A stretch of DNA of 54,567 nucleotides, taken from Candidatus Bathyarchaeota archaeon. GTDB taxonomy: Archaea; Thermoproteota; Bathyarchaeia; RBG-16-48-13; GCA-020355125. Made by a program: the position numbers and the translations under genes. The stretch is from positions 1 to 54,567 of the forward strand of contig JAOZHB010000050.1 of NCBI GenBank assembly GCA_026015035.1. Direction: 5' to 3'. Under the pieces are notes generated by a model that was not told the DNA's origin, made no database searches, and worked only from the letters and a program-made list of their open reading frames with translations. Below, piece by piece: positions 6,050 through 51,087 of the stretch. Numbering within the stretch: position 1 is the stretch's first letter; each line of letters opens with the position of its first letter.

Positions 6050-6169
6050 CCGCTGAGGGGGTCGTGGGCTGGGAGCTGGTGATGCCTGCGTCGACTTGTC
6101 CACTCACGAGTATCCCAATTCGACGCATTGGGCCCGCCGATCCTCGGACGCTCCCGGCATTTCAGGCGG
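6050..6169. ncRNA. Candidate structured RNA/DNA element, family unknown
   Basis: GC-rich intergenic patch with complementary segments 6087-6094/6120-6127, 6057-6064/6138-6145, 6068-6076/6150-6158, 6050-6056/6162-6169. Confidence 0.3.
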
Positions 6170-6584
6170 ATTTAACAAGGTATAATGCACGCAATATCCG
6201 TGTCATTTCCCTATGTAACAGGTCATCTTTTAGGCGCCTTAGACGAAATACGCCGCGATTTAATCTCCTTCCCAGAAAAATTTTTTTCAATTTATCGTTT
6301 TTTACATATGGAAAAATGAGAGAGACCCAGTCCACCTGTACATACAGCAGTGGCCTATCTGGCTAGCGATAAATGGTAATGTATCCCAATTATTTCCTAA
6401 AATTTACATTTTAGAGCCCGAGAATTTGCCCTTTTTATGCATTATCTTAAAGAAATCTGTAAATTCAAAACAGCTAGCTAGCTTTGTTCTTTCATACAAA
6501 GAGGCTTGGATGAAGCAATCTCTAACAGCTAGCTAAATTTTTTTATTAGTTTTGCTAAAGGATGTATTAAGCTGGGATTGAACC

Positions 6585-35864: not shown

Positions 35865-37112
35865 TTGAGGTTTATCGATGAATTCAAAGACTTCTGGCGT
35901 AGACAGTCAAGGAACTATAAAGTATTTCTTGCTAGAGACACTATGGCTCGTCTCTTCGGTGCGGGAGGGGGGCCTTTTGTCGGTGGCGAATACTGGTCTG
36001 TATTTATCAGACGTTTAGGCGCGACTACAGTTGAGATGGGATTAATCAGCAGCATTAGCAGTGCCATAAACATGTTGCTCGCAATTCCTTCTGGTTGGCT
36101 GACGGATCGCACAAGTAACTTGAAAAGGCTTTATATTTTTGGAAGGTTATTATCCTTACCTACTGGTTTGCTTCGCTTTCTCGCAAAGACTTGGCCCTTT
36201 TGTATCCTGATAAGTGGTTGGGAAGCTATATCGGGAAGAATTATGAGTCCGTCTTCAGAGATTATTTTGATAAGATCTCTTAGCAATATGGATCGTATCA
36301 AAGGTTTATCATTACGTGATACTATTACTTCCATTATCGGAATTGCTGGTCCTTTGATCTCGGCCCTCGTTATCACTTATTTTGGTGGTTTGGAGTCAGC
36401 CGACAGCATCAGACCACTCTTCCTAATTCAATTTGTAGTCGGTATCTTCATCTTTGCATTTGAAGCTACTCAATTACAAGAAGTTAAATTAACTCGTGTA
36501 AAGCGTAGTGCTGGGATTGTAAGCCACCTCTTTAGCATGTTTAGAGAAGCGCCCATTCTTAGTCTACATTTACTCAGAGAGTGTGTAATGACTTTTACGT
36601 GGCAGCTTACGATGCCCTTTATGGGAATATACTTGGTTGACGTGAAAGGGGCTGACCAATTTATATTGGGTTGGAGGGGAACCATCGCTACAGCTGTCCC
36701 GGTGTTCTTTTCAATACCAGCTGGTTACTTAGCTGAAAGGGTTGGTAGAAGAAGGCTTGCCTATTATACTCGTTTCACTGGGTGGATGGGAACTTTAATC
36801 ACTATTTTCACTCCTCGAACACACCCAGAGTTCCTCATAGTTGCTAGCGCATTACAAAGTATGTTAATAACGATGTTTATAGGTTGGACGGCTTTCAGGC
36901 AAGAATCAATCCCTTTACAGGCAAGAGGACGGTGGTCTGGCATAAATATATTAATGAATGGACTGGTCGGCATCATCACCCCGATTGTAGGTGGTATAAT
37001 CTGGAACCTCAACCCTGATTACCTGTGGTGGATAGGTTTATTCTGTGATGCTTTCATCGTTCTACCAGTAATGATCGTTATAGGACACAAAGTCTCAAAA
37101 ACTGAGATATAG
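35865..37112 (+). CDS. MFS transporter
   Basis: Multiple TM helices, GWLTDR and GYLAERVGRR motif A. Confidence 0.9.
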   Translation: MRFIDEFKDFWRRQSRNYKVFLARDTMARLFGAGGGPFVGGEYWSVFIRRLGATTVEMGLISSISSAINMLLAIPSGWLTDRTSNLKRLYIFGRLLSLPTGLLRFLAKTWPFCILISGWEAISGRIMSPSSEIILIRSLSNMDRIKGLSLRDTITSIIGIAGPLISALVITYFGGLESADSIRPLFLIQFVVGIFIFAFEATQLQEVKLTRVKRSAGIVSHLFSMFREAPILSLHLLRECVMTFTWQLTMPFMGIYLVDVKGADQFILGWRGTIATAVPVFFSIPAGYLAERVGRRRLAYYTRFTGWMGTLITIFTPRTHPEFLIVASALQSMLITMFIGWTAFRQESIPLQARGRWSGINILMNGLVGIITPIVGGIIWNLNPDYLWWIGLFCDAFIVLPVMIVIGHKVSKTEI

Positions 37113-37436
37113 CGCGCGCAGTCTCTAACTTGAAAAAGTGGAAACGATGGATCATTCCCATCACTGAGGCTACTGAGTAGCGCGCGCAATTTTCGTCTTC
37201 TAATTGTCATTCATTTCCCCTATCTTTTGAGTGATATTGTACCATACTAACATGAAGCAGCGTTTAGTTCTTTGTTTAAAACTAGTTTAAAATAGCTAGC
37301 ATGCACTCGAAGCATCAGTGAACATATACCTGTTTATGCTGAAATTGGTAGTTAACTACTAAACCCCGTCTAGATTGTAAATTCATAAACTCCAAAAATA
37401 CATTAACTCAAACAACAACTCAGGGATACGCCTATT

Positions 37437-37580
37437 ATGCTTGAATATGTTCGCGGTGAAGCTTGCGAAGAATGTGAAGGGCTTCTTGCCAAAGACTCAG
37501 AGACAGGAGAAGTCGTTTGCATTAAATGTGGACTGGTTCAAAGCATCGAGAAAAAACAGTTTATCGAATCCATCATCTAA
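37437..37580 (+). CDS. TFIIB-type zinc-ribbon microprotein (47 aa)
   Basis: Manually translated: CEEC...D.ETGEVVCIKCGLV. Confidence 0.7.
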   Translation: MLEYVRGEACEECEGLLAKDSETGEVVCIKCGLVQSIEKKQFIESII

Positions 37581-37736
37581 TTAGCCAGCCATTAGCGCGC
37601 GCTAGTTTCAATCTCTCCAAGCTAACTTCTATTTTGAAGTCTTAACTCCCAGAACCGCCTATTGCTCTTCGAATTGCGCGCGCGATGCTATTTAAATAGA
37701 TGACCCGTAGCTATTCTAGCTCAGAGGAGGAATATC

Positions 37737-44066: not shown

Positions 44067-44429
44067 CCCACTTATTTAGAAGGTCATTATAACAGGCAAA
44101 CAGACCTTTAAGGCGAATAGCAGGCTCTTCCTTTTATCCCTTATGACGAAAACCCAGTGAGGAACCATTCTACTCAGAAATCATCAACAGGAATACGTAT
44201 CCCTAGGGAGCGTATAGTCCACCCCTGTGTGAAACGCCAAACAAAGACTGCCCAGCTCCGAACAGCTGTTATGGGTGTTTGAGACACCGTCAATCTATAC
44301 GATTGGGCGATGAAGCCGTCGAACCCGTGTGTATAATGGTAGATGCCGTAAACATAGACCGTCGATGTTTTTAGTATGCAGAACCATTTATGTTCCGTGA
44401 ACTCAATTAAAGATGAGAGGAATAGTGTT

Positions 44430-45206
44430 ATGCAGTGGAAGAAGAACAAGTTAAAACGTATCTTGGAAGAGGAAAAAATCGCGGTGGGCACGGCTTTTTA
44501 CTCCTTCAGTCCTGCCCTCGTGGAGACCGCTGGTTACTGCGGATTAGACTTCTGTCGTATCGATAATGAGCACGCGTGGCGACAGGATGAAACCCTCGAG
44601 CACATGTTACGGGCGGCCACAATTTCCGATATTGTGGCGTTGCCGAGAGTCGATGGAAATCCGGAACTCATTCGAAAGGTGTTGGAAGCGGGAGCCTGGG
44701 GCTTCGTGGCACCCCACGTGTTGACGAAAGCAGACGTCACGAAGATTGTGCGAGCCGCGAAGTTTCCCCCGCAGGGAGAACGAGGATACGGCAGCATGTG
44801 TTTCTCCGGTCGATGGGGAACGGGCTCCGGTAAGGAATGGATCGAGTGGAGTAACGAGGAGACCATGGTGGGCGTCATGATCGAGGATTACCGGGCGGTG
44901 AAGAGGATCGAGGAGATCATGGCCGTTGATGGCTTAGACTTCATCCTCTTTGGACCGTCAGATTACTCAGTCTCCCTCGGACTCCCGACGCAGACCACGC
45001 ACCCGAAGGTCATGGAAGGCCTGCAAAAGACCATCGACGCCGCGAATCGACATGGAAAGTACGTGATGAAGGGGGTCGGGTATCCTTGGCGGGAAAACGC
45101 CGAGAAGTATATTGAGATGGGCTGCCACCTCATCGAGTTGGGCCACGACGTTTCAATCCTCAGCGCCATGTGGAAACGACTCGGCAGTGAGGTGAGAACC
45201 CTCTAA
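44430..45206 (+). CDS. HpcH/HpaI aldolase family protein
   Basis: IDNEH, FPPQGERG, MIED, FGPSDYS. Confidence 0.92.
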   Translation: MQWKKNKLKRILEEEKIAVGTAFYSFSPALVETAGYCGLDFCRIDNEHAWRQDETLEHMLRAATISDIVALPRVDGNPELIRKVLEAGAWGFVAPHVLTKADVTKIVRAAKFPPQGERGYGSMCFSGRWGTGSGKEWIEWSNEETMVGVMIEDYRAVKRIEEIMAVDGLDFILFGPSDYSVSLGLPTQTTHPKVMEGLQKTIDAANRHGKYVMKGVGYPWRENAEKYIEMGCHLIELGHDVSILSAMWKRLGSEVRTL

Positions 45207-45272
45207 GCTGGCGGCGAAGAGACCGCTCAGCTAGCTCCCTCAGCCAATACATTTAGCGTGCGCGTGTAGTGC

Positions 45273-46208
45273 TTATGCTTTGAAAACTCCCGTATCAATC
45301 CACTCAGTTTTGATGAGGGACCACCAGTCGATAGCAAGTGATTTCTGTACATAATCATACGGCAGCCAACCGTACCCACTATCGCCCCAACTAGTACCCC
45401 AAGAGTTACGTATAAGAAGTGCCCCCGTTGTCTTTACCCCACAAAGCGTGTTTTCAATCTCCACGTCGTCATCAAATCCTACGGCAACTACCGCATGACC
45501 CCCAAGACGTTTGTCTCTGGAACACGGAAAGGGGATCTTTCCAGTTGTGCTGGCTTGACGAATCGAATTGAAGACCGTAAATCCAAACATGGAGGGGAGA
45601 CCAGCGGTCAGAAAGGCCTTTATCCGTTCTACAAGCACATCCTTGGCGGTGCCAGGAGGGTCGAGACGATAGTACATAATCGACTTGTAGTCTTGTGCAA
45701 AGGCGTAACAGAAGGCAGGAGGCTCCTTCTCGAAGTCACCAATCGTGTAAACCCAATATTCCTCTGGGCAGACACCAAAAAGGACCATGGCCCCCATCGT
45801 TGTACGAATAAATGCTCCAGTATCCCCAGTCCAGTGAAGAAGGTTTCGAGTTGCCTTATACAGAAACAGCCTTGACGCATCAACATGCTTACCGAAAGCC
45901 CTTCGCTCATAGTATTCCATGAGGCCTACCCCTGCATTGGCTGTACATGAACCCAGAGAACCTTGGTTCTCTATAGGCGGGCACCATCCCTTTAGGTTGA
46001 ACGAACTAGGAATACTCACTTTGGTGGGTTCTAACACGCCCACTTTCCCTAACAACACGCTTACCGAGTCTTCTTCTTTCTTCAGTCCAATTTCCTGATG
46101 TCGTGGACGAAGGTCCTTCATGTCAATCGTGAAGTCGCGAAAGTCGGGATAATCTGGCAACCACCCCAATCCTAATTCGACGCCAACTCGTTCTTCTTTT
46201 TCAGTCAT
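45273..46208 (-). CDS. C1 (papain-like) cysteine protease
   Basis: NQGSLGSCTANA, GGHAV, RNSWG. Confidence 0.93.
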   Translation of the reverse strand: MTEKEERVGVELGLGWLPDYPDFRDFTIDMKDLRPRHQEIGLKKEEDSVSVLLGKVGVLEPTKVSIPSSFNLKGWCPPIENQGSLGSCTANAGVGLMEYYERRAFGKHVDASRLFLYKATRNLLHWTGDTGAFIRTTMGAMVLFGVCPEEYWVYTIGDFEKEPPAFCYAFAQDYKSIMYYRLDPPGTAKDVLVERIKAFLTAGLPSMFGFTVFNSIRQASTTGKIPFPCSRDKRLGGHAVVAVGFDDDVEIENTLCGVKTTGALLIRNSWGTSWGDSGYGWLPYDYVQKSLAIDWWSLIKTEWIDTGVFKA

Positions 46209-46454
46209 TGTCTCTCAAATACGTAGAATGTATGTATAGATATAAAAACGTTTGACGCACGCGTTTAGAGAGGATAGTAACGTGAAAAACACAACAATTG
46301 ACACGTGAAACGCTCTTCGGATAGAAAGCTATGGGCACCTAGTCGCTAGCTAGCGAGCTTAAAACCTTGAAACCATTGAGTGCTAAGAAACTTGCCATGA
46401 GCTAGCTAGTTAAAAAGGTGGGGCGAGTACGCTATCGTACTCTTCGTGACGATG

Positions 46455-46932
46455 CTAGTATGCTTTAGCGAGACCATTGCCTAGTAATGTTAAGTGATTT
46501 CTGTCATGAAGCATTACGGACGCAGCGACAGTGTCGATCGGTACTAGTTCCAAATATTTTTCCGTGTATTTGGCATATCCAATTGCGTATGCTTGTTGGA
46601 ATGTTTTTCCTTCTAAGAGGGCATAATTTGCGGCGTTAGAGGCTTCAGTAAACCTGTTCAGATGCCATAAATGCGCCCAATGAAGGTCGTTATAGCCTAA
46701 ATAAGCTTTGGCCGTGCTCGCGATGGCGAGAGGGCCCAGTCCTGCCGCGGATTGGCATGATACGGTACTCGCAGCACGTCCTGAGAGAAGGCCTACATTG
46801 CCAGCGTCTAAGGCGGCTTCGAGAACCCCTGACTCCTGACCCCAGAGCGTGAATGTGCTACCATGATCATAATGTATCACGAAGTCAGGATCTTCTTCGG
46901 AGATGTTGGTGGTGACTTTTTCCCGACTCGCA
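46455..46932 (-). pseudogene. N-terminally truncated caspase/gingipain(C25)-fold-like protein
   Basis: YDHGS..SCQS..YLGY..LLGN pattern; the protein-like part begins right after TAGCGCGCGCTA (46933-46944) and upstream in-frame sequence looks non-coding. Confidence 0.5.
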
Positions 46933-47068
46933 TAGCGCGCGCTAATGTAACAAGGAAGGGAGATCCGACGAATTTTAAAAGAAAAAAAAGATCGGCTATT
47001 TAGATAAAAGAAAAAATGGGGGAACATTGCGGGAGATCTCTCCCACAACATACTGGTTCAGACCTGAT

Positions 47069-49216
47069 CTAGTCTTCCTCGAGTAGACAGAACCCTTTAT
47101 CGTCAACATTGCGGTTGTGGCGACGCTCACTATTACGGATAGTTCGATCCCATACTCGGACTCGGACCACGTAGCCACACGCCACCATAGTTTTAGTATC
47201 CAGTTTCCAAGCATTACCTGCTAACGCCGTCTGTGATTCACCCGATGATACTGGAAATATAGTGCCTGTTGTCGGACTTGGCGGCGACATGCTGGCGGGA
47301 AGGGTATCCAGTCTGAAGTGTCCGAAGTGGAGATCACGAGCCACAAACTTACCGGTGATCACAGCTCCAGGCGCGTACTTGTCACACGCGCCACCGTCAA
47401 TGGTGATTTCGGCAGTGGGCACAGTGTTGTCTAGGCGGATGCGATACCAGGGTGTATTATCTAGATTGAGCGTGCCTGCATTGTTGTACAGTCGCAAGCG
47501 TATCTCCCACAGGCCGTCGCCGCTTGTGGACCACTCAACTAGCTTGTTCAAGACGTTTTGCGTTACATCCAAGTAGTCAAAGAGACCCGTGACAGGGTCA
47601 GCGTTGTGATAGGATCCATTCCCGTACATGTCCACGACCCAGATCTTGTTTGTGATGGTGAGTACGTTAGAGCTGCCGAACTCCCTTACCTCGATGCAGT
47701 ACTTGAAACCAACGTTGGGTGGCGCATGAGCGATTACAAGACCGCCAAAGGGGCACTCCCGCAGGTGAGTCCCCCAGGGATCAGCAGGGGTGCTCCACAC
47801 CGCAAATTTGGCATTCGGCTTCGTCATGCCATTACTCGCCGTATTGATATCGCCAATTCCGATACCGCCCAGGATGCTGATCTGCGCCATAAGTTCCCAA
47901 GGTTTCCCTGGCTTGATCTGCACGTGGGTGTCCAGACGGTTACCCCAATAGGGGACGTCATTCGGGTCAGTGGTGGAGGGCGGCGTATTCCACGATAGAA
48001 CCGCACGCACACGGGCAATCTTCGGCTTGTTGCACGGTTGACGGTGCGAGCGTAGATCGACGGGGAGGATGGCCGTATAGTGAAGCCCATCGGCTGGCAT
48101 GCTTGCTATGTCGTAAACACTCACTTCCACCGTGTCGAGATAGGTCCACTCACAGGTGTCATCCCAGTCCGCCCAGAACGCTATGTACTCCTTGCTACCC
48201 TTCTTGCACAGGTCGCCCGAATACCCGGACGGTTTCTTGATGTGGAACGCAGCCAACAACCACTCAAGGTTATAATCCAGGCCCAAGCAATCTAACTCCT
48301 CGTAGGAAACGTTGCCGCTGGTCGCTTGCAGTGCCTCAACCGCAGCTGACCAGTCTAGGCCCACCGCATCCCATTTAGCAATCATCTTTGAAACTATCTG
48401 CGGGTTGACCGCCCCGACAGCTAGGTGCGCCTGGATATCGTTGAAACCGAACCGGTGTGGCTCCACAGCGATCTTCCCCACTTGCATCTTTGTGCCTGCG
48501 GGCGTGGTATACAGTTTCACTAAGTCAGGTAACTCTAGAGGGGGTGGTTCGGGCTGGGGAATTGGACAAGGCTCGACTTCCTCGAAGATCGGTGGCAGCT
48601 TAACCTCTTGCTTCAGAGCGATCCCGATGACCTTTACCACATCAGCAAGTAACCACAGTCGTGGTTTAATCTGGATGTGCCGCTCAAGCGTATTTCCCCA
48701 CACCATTGGCCAATCCGGGTCATCGTCAGGTGGCTCTGCCTCCCAAGACAGGATGGCCCGCACATTGGGGAGGACGGGGTTGCCACAATAGTCCCGATGT
48801 GGCTCGATGGGAAGCGTCACCACATAGGTGAGAGGTTTGTTGGGCTTGCCAGCGCAGTCGTTAGCGTTGGGGATATCATGAGCATTGAAGGCGACGAGGC
48901 CTGCGTTCTCCCAGCCGTCCCCATAATCTATGAAGAATCGCACGTATTCTGTGGTTCCAGGCTGGCACAGGTTTCCCCCATAACCGTGTGGTAGTTTAAC
49001 TTGTACGGTGGCTTCCAGCATATTCAGGTTGGGATTGAACCCGACGCAGGTCAGTTCTTCGTACGTGGTGTTGCCCACGATCTTCTTCACTGTCTTGAAG
49101 GGGCTTTTAGGCAGAGTACCAAAGTAATTCGGATTTTGAAGCATCAGCTTCTTAAACTCAATCCTTTCCTTTTCCACCTTCACTTCCATATTTCTTCCTC
49201 TTGTTTCCTTTTTCAT
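47069..49216 (-). CDS. Large hypothetical protein with an internally duplicated domain
   Basis: GNTTYEELTC..GYGGNLC..EYVRF..RAILSW..WGN..HIQIKP repeated as GNVSYEELDC..GYSGDLC..EYIAF..RAVLSW..WGN..HVQIKP; GGAGGTGA RBS. Confidence 0.85.
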   Translation of the reverse strand: MKKETRGRNMEVKVEKERIEFKKLMLQNPNYFGTLPKSPFKTVKKIVGNTTYEELTCVGFNPNLNMLEATVQVKLPHGYGGNLCQPGTTEYVRFFIDYGDGWENAGLVAFNAHDIPNANDCAGKPNKPLTYVVTLPIEPHRDYCGNPVLPNVRAILSWEAEPPDDDPDWPMVWGNTLERHIQIKPRLWLLADVVKVIGIALKQEVKLPPIFEEVEPCPIPQPEPPPLELPDLVKLYTTPAGTKMQVGKIAVEPHRFGFNDIQAHLAVGAVNPQIVSKMIAKWDAVGLDWSAAVEALQATSGNVSYEELDCLGLDYNLEWLLAAFHIKKPSGYSGDLCKKGSKEYIAFWADWDDTCEWTYLDTVEVSVYDIASMPADGLHYTAILPVDLRSHRQPCNKPKIARVRAVLSWNTPPSTTDPNDVPYWGNRLDTHVQIKPGKPWELMAQISILGGIGIGDINTASNGMTKPNAKFAVWSTPADPWGTHLRECPFGGLVIAHAPPNVGFKYCIEVREFGSSNVLTITNKIWVVDMYGNGSYHNADPVTGLFDYLDVTQNVLNKLVEWSTSGDGLWEIRLRLYNNAGTLNLDNTPWYRIRLDNTVPTAEITIDGGACDKYAPGAVITGKFVARDLHFGHFRLDTLPASMSPPSPTTGTIFPVSSGESQTALAGNAWKLDTKTMVACGYVVRVRVWDRTIRNSERRHNRNVDDKGFCLLEED

Positions 49217-49841
49217 GATGTTGTCACCTCCTTTTTATTCACTTGAAAAAGTTCTACCGATTAACATATGTGGCACACTATATTTGAAGTAATATGTTTT
49301 GCAGAACTTTATCCTAAAAATCTATTAGAAATATAAGCTTTTTAATGAGTAGAATTGCTGTCGTTGATGTTACTGGCTAGAAGAGCCTCTATAACAAAGC
49401 TGGAGTAAAGGATCTTTCGCAATACTCTTTTTCGAAATAACTCGTTGGCAGGTATTAACTAGGGGGTGTATTGATCATCTGGGTTTCTTATGATTCTTGT
49501 GCTGGTTTACAAGCTGGTGGATTCGTCGCCTGAGGGCGTCCCTGATGACGTCATCTAGTTAGCTAGTTCTCCTAGATCAGAATCAGGGAACAACATACTA
49601 TATAGTTTAAAACTGGGAAGCCAATTAATAACATGCATACGAAGTGGGAGTGGATCATCGAAGCAAGCGAAAACGGGGAGAGTGTCAGTATTACGGTCAA
49701 GAGCCCCGAAAGCAGGCATACCTCAAATGGGGTCGTCGAGAAATCCATTAGAGCGCCGTAGGCACCTATCGCATGATCCACTGCATCATTGACTCCGCGA
49801 ACCTCGTTCACACTCGGAACGCGTTGGAGAGAGGAAAATAA

Positions 49842-50984: not shown

Positions 50985-51087
50985 AGAGTCTTGCTAGCGC
51001 GCGCTAGAGAAGATCATAACAAAATTGCTTTAGAAGAATTCAAGGAAATAGGAAAAAAGCGCTCGCGCTTTTACGGAGGCTTACAGT

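What the first reader, a model, noticed from the sequence alone, without database searches (positions are those of the whole stretch)
46900..46990. Perfect TAGCGCGCGCTA sits at an apparent gene truncation point
Seen: on the minus strand, low-complexity T-rich non-coding-like sequence switches to protein-like ASREKVTTNISEEDPDFVIHYDHGS immediately after the palindrome (46933-46944), with no proper start. Inference: the clearest local evidence that the motif marks a rearrangement junction rather than a promoter or terminator.
Basis: partly seen in the sequence, partly recalled or inferred. Interest (0 to 1): 0.7.

Follow-up and report, generated by a model that had tools for sequence, protein, structure and literature searches.

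The report
Palindrome written into a deletion joint
In this uncultured sediment archaeon a 12-letter palindrome sits exactly where about 760 letters, including the front of a protease-like gene, were lost, and the same kind of short palindrome marks other places in the genome where DNA was lost, gained or swapped, which points to an undescribed way of rejoining broken DNA.

Summary
TAGCGCGCGCTA lies at 46933-46944, and homology of the minus-strand gene to 22 of 22 full-length relatives, and to an 87%-identical contig, stops at 46932/46933. The remnant is the last 158 codons of a ~235-aa caspase/CHAT-fold protein.

A contig from an independent sediment run carries 760 letters where the window has 14 (AGCGCGCGCTAATG). 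So this is a deletion joint, and the palindrome was not matched on either side of the relative's contig, whose 760 letters I could not read.

It is not a one-off:
- The genome holds 46 TA(GC)3-5TA copies, 43 of them outside ORFs of at least 80 aa. They are equally dense between convergent, divergent and tandem genes, so they do not behave as promoters or terminators.
- On contig C74 the 14-mer replaces 967 letters inside an amidohydrolase gene that is intact in two same-genus genomes.
- On C130 a (GC)5 tract joins two unrelated fragments and is absent from both donor copies.
- A second self-complementary family, (TAGC)n, behaves the same way. In total 8 of 9 size-changing indels against same-genus genomes have such a motif within 20 nt of a joint, against a 7.4% background.

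My best reading (about 0.5) is a repair-associated self-complementary linker. Its rivals are a tiny mobile palindrome or a fragile site.

This scan noted similar (CG)n "scars" in another archaeal genome (e1-6510013). I found nothing in print.

The parts
46933..46944 (.). Perfect 12-nt palindrome TAGCGCGCGCTA, TA(GC)4TA. It lies at the deletion joint.
   Evidence: It is one of 23 exact copies in the genome.
46934..46947 (.). The 14 letters (AGCGCGCGCTAATG) that the window has where the relative's contig has 760 letters. This is filler at the joint. The T at 46933 is shared with the gene side.
   Evidence: table 5 (46933 to 46948 skips 14, 760 letters between) and table 8 (record 26).
46455..46932 (-). 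3' remnant (158 codons plus stop) of a ~235-aa caspase/CHAT-fold gene. It lacks the first ~76 codons, which encode beta1, helix A and beta2 of the core. It is a likely pseudogene.
   Evidence: AlphaFold model of the full-length homolog: pLDDT 88. Foldseek hits: SAVED-CHAT 8tl0 at E 1.6e-5, gingipain R, caspases, separase.
46945..47051 (-). T-rich spacer read through by a spurious 5' extension of the ORF, from the in-frame ATG at 47051. It has no homology to the protein family.
46948..47068 (.). Spacer downstream of the 715-aa gene. It is shared with the relative's contig and forms the other parental side of the joint.
   Evidence: table 8: record 26 lies on 46948-47359 with 45 other letters and 11 gaps.
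47069..49216 (-). Upstream 715-aa gene with no Pfam match. It is an accessory gene, found in 1 of 23 genomes of the order (G000 only).
46412..46454 (-). Conserved 3' flank of the gene remnant: an inverted repeat followed by a T run, terminator-like. It is shared with L004.
46345..46354 (.). GCTAGCTAGC motif. The relative's contig diverges inside it: 46226 to 46347 is replaced by 118 other letters.
   Evidence: table 5.
44155..49585 (.). About 5.4-kb island holding an HpcH/HpaI aldolase, a papain-like peptidase, the gene remnant and the 715-aa gene. It is absent from same-genus genomes G001 and G002. Its right joint carries CTAGTTAGCTAG at 49555-49566.
50995..51006 (.). Second exact palindrome. 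Homology to G001 ends at 50992. The X9 contig joins 50999 to 51064, so the relative lacks 64 nt that lie between two GC motifs.
   Evidence: table 5.

Best explanation
The palindrome is the scar of a deletion.

The ancestral locus, still present in a close relative, read: 715-aa gene, spacer, small 83-aa ORF, full 235-aa caspase/CHAT-like gene, papain-like peptidase. About 760 nt were lost. I infer that this covered the distal spacer, the small ORF and the first ~76 codons.

The two ends were rejoined through a short self-complementary insert, A(GC)4TA plus ATG, which together with a native T reads TAGCGCGCGCTA.

Shown:
- The deletion, its exact ends, and that the contig's alignment to the window does not cover the palindrome on either side.
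- The same TA(GC)4-5TA sequence fills other joints whose two parental sides are known.
- The outer T, TA or TAGC letters are often native to the flank.

Inferred:
- In this Bathyarchaeia family, broken DNA ends are joined through a self-complementary linker. The linker is either synthesised at the ends or copied by microhomology-primed template switching from the many existing copies.
- Because (GC)n and (TAGC)n pair with themselves, any two ends carrying them can anneal, which leaves a palindrome at the joint.
- The remnant gene is a by-product and probably dead.
For: This site:
- The X9 contig has 760 letters where the window has 14.
- Source-sample contig X1 record 7 (2722 nt, 0 differences) spans 46477-49198, so the joint is not a binning chimera.
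- 22 of 22 full-length homologs extend about 75 residues further.
- An 83-aa ORF sits directly upstream of the gene in 28 of 37 related loci and is not found in this genome.

Same filler elsewhere:
- C74:13541. G000 has 11 nt, A(GC)5, where G001 has 967 nt and G002 about 968 nt that complete an Amidohydro_3 gene. The flanks match paralog residues 2-46 and 422-562. Neither relative has a GC tract at either boundary.
- C130:8732. A (GC) filler joins a fragment 90.7% identical to C130:1397-1578 to one 90.2% identical to window 6194-6052. It is absent from both donors.
- C72:2156. Homology to G001 and G002 ends inside the palindrome, where a native TAGC is shared, and about 300 nt are replaced by 4.4 kb.
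- C18:23246. A 5'-truncated TBP-like fragment starts 3 nt after TAGCGCGCTA, while G002 is continuous there.
- C18:24450. A 20-nt filler holding (TAGC)3 stands where G001 has 537 nt.

Statistics:
- 8 of 9 size-changing indels have a motif within 20 nt of a joint, against 7.4% for random non-ORF positions.
- Truncated paralog alignments end within 25 nt of 7 of 209 (GC) tracts of at least 8 nt and 26 of 934 (TAGC)n sites, against 10 of 1000 control positions.
- Copy number varies sharply among family genomes: 23, 4, 4, 39, 36, 14, 1, 0, 0, 0.
Against: - No enzyme is identified. Ku was found in 1 of 10 family genomes and not in G000. RVT_1 was found in 1 of 10 and not in G000.
- The filler is a defined sequence with a GC core of mostly 8 or 10 nt. 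That is odd for untemplated tailing and fits copying or a fixed unit better.
- Long open frames abutting the palindromes are not enriched: 15 of 92 flank sides reach 60 aa, against 27% of controls. Most copies therefore show no recognisable gene stump.
- The X9 contig is only about 89% identical in the spacer, and its 760 letters could not be read. A palindrome pre-existing in the direct ancestor's spacer is not excluded for this one site.
- Polarity (deletion versus insertion) is proven only where a gene is completed by the longer form: 46933 and C74.
- The stretches compared with relatives were chosen because they hold palindromes. The TAGC joints in them were not chosen for.
- Two same-size spacer replacements and one in-gene indel have no motif under the strict rule.
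Confidence: 0.5

Rival explanations
1. The palindrome is a tiny non-autonomous mobile element, in the manner of the palindromic GC clusters of yeast mitochondria. It inserted, at TA or A/T sites, and later caused adjacent deletions or recombination between copies, with one copy surviving at the joint.
For: - The sequence is defined and repeated, with consensus T(59%) A(85%) (GC)4-5 T(81%) A(52%).
- Copy number is patchy among related genomes.
- One case looks like an insertion: C18:20040 has about 24 extra nt, including the palindrome, relative to G001.
- Segments flanked by a copy at each end exist: C18 20040 to 23255, and window 50995 to about 51068.
- Yeast GC42 clusters are mobile palindromes with AG target nucleotides (PMC4478555, passages read).
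Against: - The element is only 12-14 nt, and no conserved flanks were found.
- No simple presence/absence site was seen. Of 8 palindromes in G001 and G002, 0 have both flanks matched in G000. The C18:20040 insert carries about 13 extra non-motif letters.
- The C74 and 46933 deletions would each need an insertion into a gene or spacer plus a second event.
- The left C74 boundary is not a TA site.
- Y1 transposases (PF01797) were found in 0 of 10 family genomes and DDE_3 (PF13358) in 0 of 10.
Confidence: 0.22
2. The palindrome pre-existed in the spacer behind the 715-aa gene as an ordinary intergenic motif. As a cruciform- or Z-DNA-forming fragile site it provoked a break, and resection on one side ate into the neighbouring genes. 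The motif marks the joint because it caused the break.
For: - 43 of 46 copies lie outside ORFs.
- Alternating CG is the classic Z-DNA former (recalled).
- At 46933 the spacer side resumes only 3 nt from the palindrome, and the relative is only about 89% identical there.
- At 50995 the indel lies between two GC motifs that share 6 letters.
Against: - At C74 both flanks are coding sequence of one gene, and neither G001 nor G002 has any GC tract at either boundary.
- At C130 neither donor copy has the tract.
- The X9 contig does not align to the palindrome on either side at 46933.
Confidence: 0.15
3. The palindrome is a protein-binding site, such as an operator or a bidirectional terminator or insulator carrying TAG stops on both strands. 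It lies next to the truncation by chance, or was selected afterwards.
For: - It is a perfect dyad of the size bound by dimeric regulators.
- It is strongly intergenic.
- TAG opens the motif on both strands, and in two cases this TAG is the stop codon of the upstream gene: C72:2156 and C89:4914.
Against: - Density is equal in convergent, divergent and tandem spacers.
- There is no preferred distance to starts or stops.
- None of the 14 copies compared is spanned by an alignment to the same-genus genomes.
- Chance adjacency to a joint is about 3e-4 per joint (my estimate from 46 copies in 2.06 Mb), yet it recurs.
Confidence: 0.06
4. The joint is an assembly or binning artefact.
For: The genome is a fragmented metagenome bin: 146 contigs and 7.4% contamination.
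Against: - Logan's separate assembly of run X1 gives a 2722-nt contig with 0 differences across the joint, at depth 22.6. This run may be the source sample.
- The motif is shorter than assembly k-mers (my own knowledge of assemblers; no call).
- The same motif family occurs in other assemblies, including the single-contig genome G004 with 39 copies.
Confidence: 0.02

Closest known systems
Filler DNA or templated insertions at end-joining junctions (Ku/LigD NHEJ; microhomology-mediated and polymerase-theta-type joining). Recalled knowledge.
   Same: - Extra letters lie exactly at the joint of two formerly distant sequences.
- 1-4 nt of overlap with the native flanks.
- Accompanied by deletions of hundreds of nucleotides.
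   Different: - Here the insert is the same defined self-complementary sequence at many joints. Known filler is random or copied from nearby DNA.
- Ku was not found in this genome.
Palindromic GC clusters of yeast mitochondrial DNA, e.g. GC42 (PMC4478555, passages read)
   Same: - Short GC-rich palindromes confined to spacers.
- Sporadic between close relatives.
- Linked to indels and recombination.
   Different: - Those are about 42-nt hairpins with loops and AG target nucleotides, and they behave as insertions.
- Here the units are 12-14 nt with no loop, and they are seen replacing lost DNA inside genes.
Excision footprints of TA-targeting cut-and-paste transposons (Tc1/mariner/IS630). Recalled.
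   Same: The form TA + a few terminal letters + their inverse + TA gives a short palindrome.
   Different: - No parent element and no DDE_3 transposase were found (0 of 10 genomes).
- Footprints do not remove 760-967 nt of host DNA.
REP/REPIN elements with RAYT transposases, and cyanobacterial HIP1. Recalled; search listings only.
   Same: Highly iterated short palindromes that are specific to a lineage.
   Different: - REPs are longer imperfect hairpins with a GTAG head and a RAYT gene. Y1_Tnp was found in 0 of 10 genomes, and there is no G preference before TAG.
- HIP1 is frequent inside genes, whereas these motifs avoid them.
De novo synthesis of alternating or palindromic repeats by DNA polymerases in vitro: poly d(G-C), and the Ogata and Miura repeats made by archaeal polymerases. 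Recalled, not checked.
   Same: Self-complementary short-unit repeats arise without a template and extend by hairpin or slippage.
   Different: This is known only in the test tube. No link to repair joints in a genome is known.

Membership tests
End-joining filler DNA (NHEJ/MMEJ) | Lies exactly between two sequences that are contiguous or distant in the parental form | tested here: met
   46933; C74:13541; C130:8732; C18:24450.
End-joining filler DNA (NHEJ/MMEJ) | Absent from both parental flanks | tested here: met
   Met at C74 (G001 and G002), C130 (both donors) and C18:24450 (G001). At 46933 it is met on the gene side; on the spacer side it is judged only by the alignment of an 89%-identical contig.
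End-joining filler DNA (NHEJ/MMEJ) | Filler sequence is heterogeneous, either untemplated or copied from nearby DNA | tested here: not met
   The same TA(GC)4-5TA recurs 42 times exactly. GC cores are mostly 8 or 10 nt.
End-joining filler DNA (NHEJ/MMEJ) | Ku-type end-binding protein encoded | tested here: not met
   PF02735 was found in 1 of 10 family genomes (G007) and not in G000, which is 88% complete.
Mobile palindromic GC cluster / MITE-like element | Presence/absence polymorphism with an otherwise unchanged empty site | tested here: inconclusive
   Of 8 palindromes in G001 and G002, 0 have both flanks matched in G000. C18:20040 is a ~24-nt insert that is not the motif alone. Relatives at about 85% identity are too distant for a firm test.
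Mobile palindromic GC cluster / MITE-like element | A transposase family able to move it | tested here: not met
   Y1_Tnp found in 0 of 10 genomes and DDE_3 in 0 of 10. Other families were not tested.
Promoter, terminator or operator motif | Fixed orientation or distance relative to gene starts or ends | tested here: not met
   Densities are 0.114, 0.103 and 0.102 per kb in convergent, divergent and tandem spacers. Distances to starts and stops are broad (crude ORF map).
Promoter, terminator or operator motif | Conserved in orthologous spacers of close relatives | tested here: not met
   None of the 14 copies is spanned by an alignment to G001 or G002.
Clan CD caspase/CHAT-like peptidase (the truncated gene's family) | Caspase-hemoglobinase fold | tested here: met
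   AlphaFold2 model of P0001 with 23-row alignment: pLDDT 88.1, pTM 0.82. Foldseek PDB: 8tl0 SAVED-CHAT at E 1.6e-5, 1cvr gingipain R at 2.1e-4, then caspases and separase.
Clan CD caspase/CHAT-like peptidase (the truncated gene's family) | Conserved His and Cys catalytic pair after strands of the core | tested here: met
   H99-G100 and S134-C135 are invariant in 23 rows. That these two residues are the catalytic pair is inferred from the fold, not assayed.
Clan CD caspase/CHAT-like peptidase (the truncated gene's family) | Match to a curated sequence family | tested here: not met
   No Pfam family at E up to 0.1 for P0001. The PDB profile search gave a best E of 0.31.

The most novel reading that the evidence does not exclude
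One family of Bathyarchaeia has an undescribed DNA-joining process that writes a defined self-complementary linker into joints where DNA is lost, captured or swapped. The linker is TA(GC)4-5TA in some lineages and (TAGC)2-3 in others. If so, the roughly 1,000 such motifs in a 2-Mb genome are a readable ledger of past breaks. Each one also places TAG stops on both strands at the seam.
Probability: 0.4. Interest if true: 0.9.

Novelty: categorically new. Interest (0 to 1): 0.8.

Why it matters
If broken DNA in these widespread sediment archaea is rejoined through a fixed self-pairing linker, three things follow.
- It would be a repair chemistry with no described counterpart, in organisms in which Ku was found in only 1 of 10 family genomes.
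- It would give a direct sequence marker for dating and mapping deletions, gene captures and island borders in uncultured genomes.
- It would point to an enzyme that adds or copies a defined short sequence at DNA ends.

There is also a practical consequence for annotation. Gene callers will report chimeric ORFs such as the 198-aa frame here. Dead gene stumps next to these motifs should be flagged as pseudogenes.

Tried and rejected
- **Larger repeat or MITE around the palindrome.** blastn-short of 46900-47100 against the genome found only the 12-15-nt core. An 11-nt flank, TGTTACATTAG, is shared with C18:20057 but occurs only twice, and TGTTACAT is not enriched at 56 copies. I treat it as chance.
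- **Missing 5' part moved elsewhere (inversion or translocation).** Not found by tblastn.
- **Gene stumps as a general feature.** Long open frames touching the palindromes are not enriched.
- **Synteny of the 715-aa gene or the papain-like peptidase with the gene family.** No homolog in any of 37 related loci. The 715-aa gene was found in no other of 23 genomes of the order.
- **Candidate enzymes by Pfam across 10 family genomes.** Ku, RVT_1, Y1_Tnp and DDE_3 show no pattern that follows the motif counts.
- **Sequence-only annotation of the gene family and the small ORF.** No significant Pfam or PDB sequence match.
- **C29 palindromes (9219, 10282).** They lie in at least 5.8 kb with no match in G001 or G002, so their joints could not be resolved. 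At C89:2949 the flanks map to different G001 contigs.
- **Locus L064 (C46).** Fetched but not searched.
- **Run X5.** Its contigs are short, and I could not tell whether one crosses the joint.
- **Minor X1 contig joining 45218 to 49803** with 12 other letters. It rests on a 40-letter side, which I consider too weak to use.
- **Earlier notes of this scan for this genome.** None exist.

Full report
**1. The object**

The window is contig C96 of a 2.06-Mb, 146-contig metagenome bin. The bin is 88% complete with 7.4% contamination. The named homologs of its genes are hypothetical proteins of Bathyarchaeota/Bathyarchaeia.

TAGCGCGCGCTA lies at 46933-46944. With up to one mismatch it occurs 6 times in the window, 3 of them exact. 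The expectation is 0.07, and 0 of 100 shuffles reached 6.

**2. The gene**

On the minus strand an ORF runs from an ATG at 47051 to the stop at 46455 (198 aa). It has no Pfam match.

The large protein search gave 144 hits at E up to 0.001 among 354 candidates. Nearly all are 235-260 aa long and each covers only about 80% of the query.
- The best hit, P0001 (234 aa), aligns with 156 of 163 identities from its residue 72 to its end.
- In an alignment with 22 full-length homologs, all 22 have a conserved N-terminal stretch of about 75 residues that the window lacks.
- At DNA level the closest public contig, L004 (91% protein identity), matches window 46412-46933 at 87.2% and nothing else nearby.
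- tblastn of six full-length homologs against the whole bin finds only 46458-46946.

A structure model of the full-length homolog has pLDDT 88.1. It matches SAVED-CHAT (8tl0, E 1.6e-5), gingipain R, caspases and separase. H99-G100 and S134-C135 are invariant. The family is therefore a small stand-alone caspase/CHAT-fold protein, although no curated sequence family claims it. The lost part covers strand 33-38, helix 45-64 and strand 68-73 of the core, so I infer that the remnant is dead.

**3. What happened here**

In 28 of 37 related loci an 83-aa ORF sits directly upstream of the gene. It is not found in this bin.

The decisive result comes from public runs. A 2895-nt contig from a marine-sediment run of another study (X9, record 26) lies on window 45209-46226, 46347-46933 and 46948-47359, with "760 letters between" 46933 and 46948. 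The relative thus keeps the order: 715-aa gene, spacer, 760 nt, gene, peptidase. The window has instead the 14 letters AGCGCGCGCTAATG.

By L004's layout, 482 of those 760 nt would be the small ORF plus the lost codons. This is an inference, because the tool does not print the 760 letters.

Logan's own 2722-nt contig of run X1 crosses the joint with 0 differences, so the joint is real in the reads. X1 may be the source sample.

**4. The motif genome-wide**

- There are 46 copies of TA(GC)nTA, with n=3, 4 and 5 giving 4, 23 and 19 copies.
- 43 of the 46 lie outside ORFs of at least 80 aa. The three "inside" copies sit in pseudo-ORFs or doubtful short ORFs.
- Only the core recurs. Flanks are not conserved beyond T-A...T-A.
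- Density is the same in convergent, divergent and tandem spacers, at 0.114, 0.103 and 0.102 per kb. This argues against a promoter or terminator role.
- The exact 12-mer is found in 6 of 9 other genomes of the family, with counts of 4, 4, 39, 36, 14 and 1. It is rare in the order and was not found in most other families of the class that were searched.

**5. Other joints**

I compared six stretches of the bin with the two same-genus genomes G001 and G002. None of the 14 palindromes in them is spanned by an alignment, and 5 of the 14 have an alignment end within 4 nt of their edge.

- **C74:13541.** The 14-mer sits inside a broken amidohydrolase gene. The flanks match paralog residues 2-46 and 422-562, and Pfam sees only profile positions 406-471 of 472. 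G001 and G002 have 967 and about 968 nt between the same flanks, with no GC tract at either boundary. The filler is 11 nt, A(GC)5. The outer T on one side and TA on the other are native.
- **C130:8732.** A (GC) tract joins a fragment 90.7% identical to C130:1397-1578 to a fragment 90.2% identical to window 6194-6052. Neither donor has the tract.
- **C72:2156.** Homology to both relatives ends after the native TAGC (a stop codon plus C) and resumes 4.4 kb later. The relatives have about 300 nt there.
- **C18.** A 3.2-kb stretch without a match in G001 or G002 is bounded by TAGCGCGCGCTA and TAGCGCGCTA. Three nucleotides after the latter starts a 5'-cut TBP-like fragment that is continuous coding sequence in G002.
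- **Window 50995.** Homology to G001 ends at 50992, and the X9 contig lacks 64 nt lying between two GC motifs.

**6. A second motif family**

The commonest 8-mers of non-ORF DNA are GCTAGCTA, AGCTAGCT and CTAGCTAG. GCTAGCTA is 66-fold enriched, with 862 copies in non-ORF DNA against 47 in ORFs. There are 934 (TAGC)n sites. These are also self-complementary, and with three units they put TAG in every frame of both strands.

They behave the same way:
- At C18:24450 a 20-nt filler holding (TAGC)3 stands where G001 has 537 nt.
- A 500-nt stretch at C18:11007-11508, absent from G001 and G002, has such motifs at both ends.
- The right border of the window's 5.4-kb island is CTAGTTAGCTAG.
- The X9 contig diverges inside GCTAGCTAGC at 46345-46354.

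The two families have partly independent distributions among family genomes. For example, G005 has 36 GC copies and 1 TAGC copy, while G002 has 4 and 73.

**7. Tests that start from the indels, and controls**

I listed every collinear pair of matches at 78% identity or more with a size change of at least 50 nt. I used a strict rule: at least 11 of 12 matches to (TAGC)3, or at least 8 alternating GC.
- 8 of 9 events have a motif within 20 nt of a joint, against 7.4% for random non-ORF positions.
- The miss is an in-gene variable stretch.
- Two same-size spacer replacements have no motif under this rule.
- Two of the nine events were in stretches chosen for their palindromes. Without them the count is 6 of 7.

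A paralog-fragment test gave truncated alignments ending within 25 nt of 7 of 209 GC tracts and 26 of 934 TAGC sites, against 10 of 1000 control positions.

Against a general "gene stump" picture, open frames of at least 60 aa touch 15 of 92 palindrome sides, against 27% of control positions.

**8. Mechanism**

The joints show three things:
- deletions of hundreds of nucleotides, or captured segments;
- a defined self-complementary insert;
- one to four letters of overlap between the outer part of the palindrome and the native flank (T, TA, TAGC, AG).

The simplest account is end joining through a self-pairing linker. Either both 3' ends acquire GC or TAGC units and anneal, or an end primes by microhomology on one of the many existing copies, copies a few units and then pairs with the other end. 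The narrow size of the GC core, mostly 8 or 10 nt, favours copying or a fixed unit over free tailing.

No enzyme is identified.

Rivals:
- **A tiny mobile palindrome.** No clean empty site was seen in 8 tests, but the relatives are distant.
- **A fragile pre-existing palindrome.** This fails at C74 and C130.
- **A regulatory site.**
- **An artefact.**

**9. Known or new**

Five full-text searches found no description of such motifs in archaea. The library lacks most subscription journals.

The nearest things are:
- end-joining filler (recalled);
- yeast mitochondrial GC clusters (PMC4478555, passages read);
- TA-transposon footprints, REP/RAYT elements and HIP1 (recalled).

Each fails a defining feature tested here.

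I saw only its summary. I reached the same reading here from independent comparisons.

**10. Verdict**

The wider pattern, if it holds at strain level, is a new kind of genomic punctuation.

Noticed in passing
whole genome; e.g. window 46345-46354, 46401-46409, 49555-49566: (TAGC)n self-complementary motifs number 934 sites and are the most enriched words of non-ORF DNA (GCTAGCTA is 66-fold enriched). They sit at indel joints like the GC palindromes. With three units they give TAG stops in all six frames.
   Followed up: partly
window 44155-49585: A 5.4-kb island holds an HpcH/HpaI aldolase, a papain-like peptidase, the gene remnant and a 715-aa gene with no family. It is absent from both same-genus genomes, which have about 110-150 nt there, starting with a TAGC-type motif.
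   Followed up: partly
L004:677-928 and 27 other related loci: A conserved 83-aa acidic ORF lies directly upstream of the caspase/CHAT-like gene in 28 of 37 loci. This suggests a two-gene unit of unknown function. No significant Pfam match was found.
   Followed up: partly
G000:C74:13009-13700: An amidohydrolase (Amidohydro_3) gene has about 967 nt of its middle replaced by the 14-nt palindrome. It is intact in G001 and G002.
   Followed up: yes
G000:C18:23246-23357: A TBP-like gene fragment begins 3 nt after TAGCGCGCTA. The same sequence is continuous coding DNA in G002:C140.
   Followed up: partly
G000:C130:8554-8882 and window 6052-6194: A chimeric joint links two duplicated fragments through a (GC)5 tract. 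The right-hand fragment belongs to a multi-copy family of about 100 aa with a member in the window at 6064-6366.
   Followed up: partly
window 37110-37604: A cluster of three GC tracts (about 37110, 37178 and 37593) lies just after an ORF. The paralog alignment of that ORF (36624-37169) stops with 207 residues of the paralog unmatched.
   Followed up: no
window 45218 / 49803: A minor contig of run X1 joins these two places, with the 12 letters TAGGTTAACTTT between them. This may be a strain lacking 4.6 kb of the island. It rests on only 40 letters on one side.
   Followed up: no
window 46418-46443 (minus strand): A 7-bp inverted repeat followed by a T run lies just after the stop of the gene remnant. 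It is conserved in L004 and looks like an archaeal terminator.
   Followed up: no
G000:C72:2153-2158 and C89:4911-4916: In two cases the TAG that opens the palindrome is the stop codon of the upstream gene: an FtsJ/RlmE-like methyltransferase and a zinc-ribbon membrane protein.
   Followed up: partly
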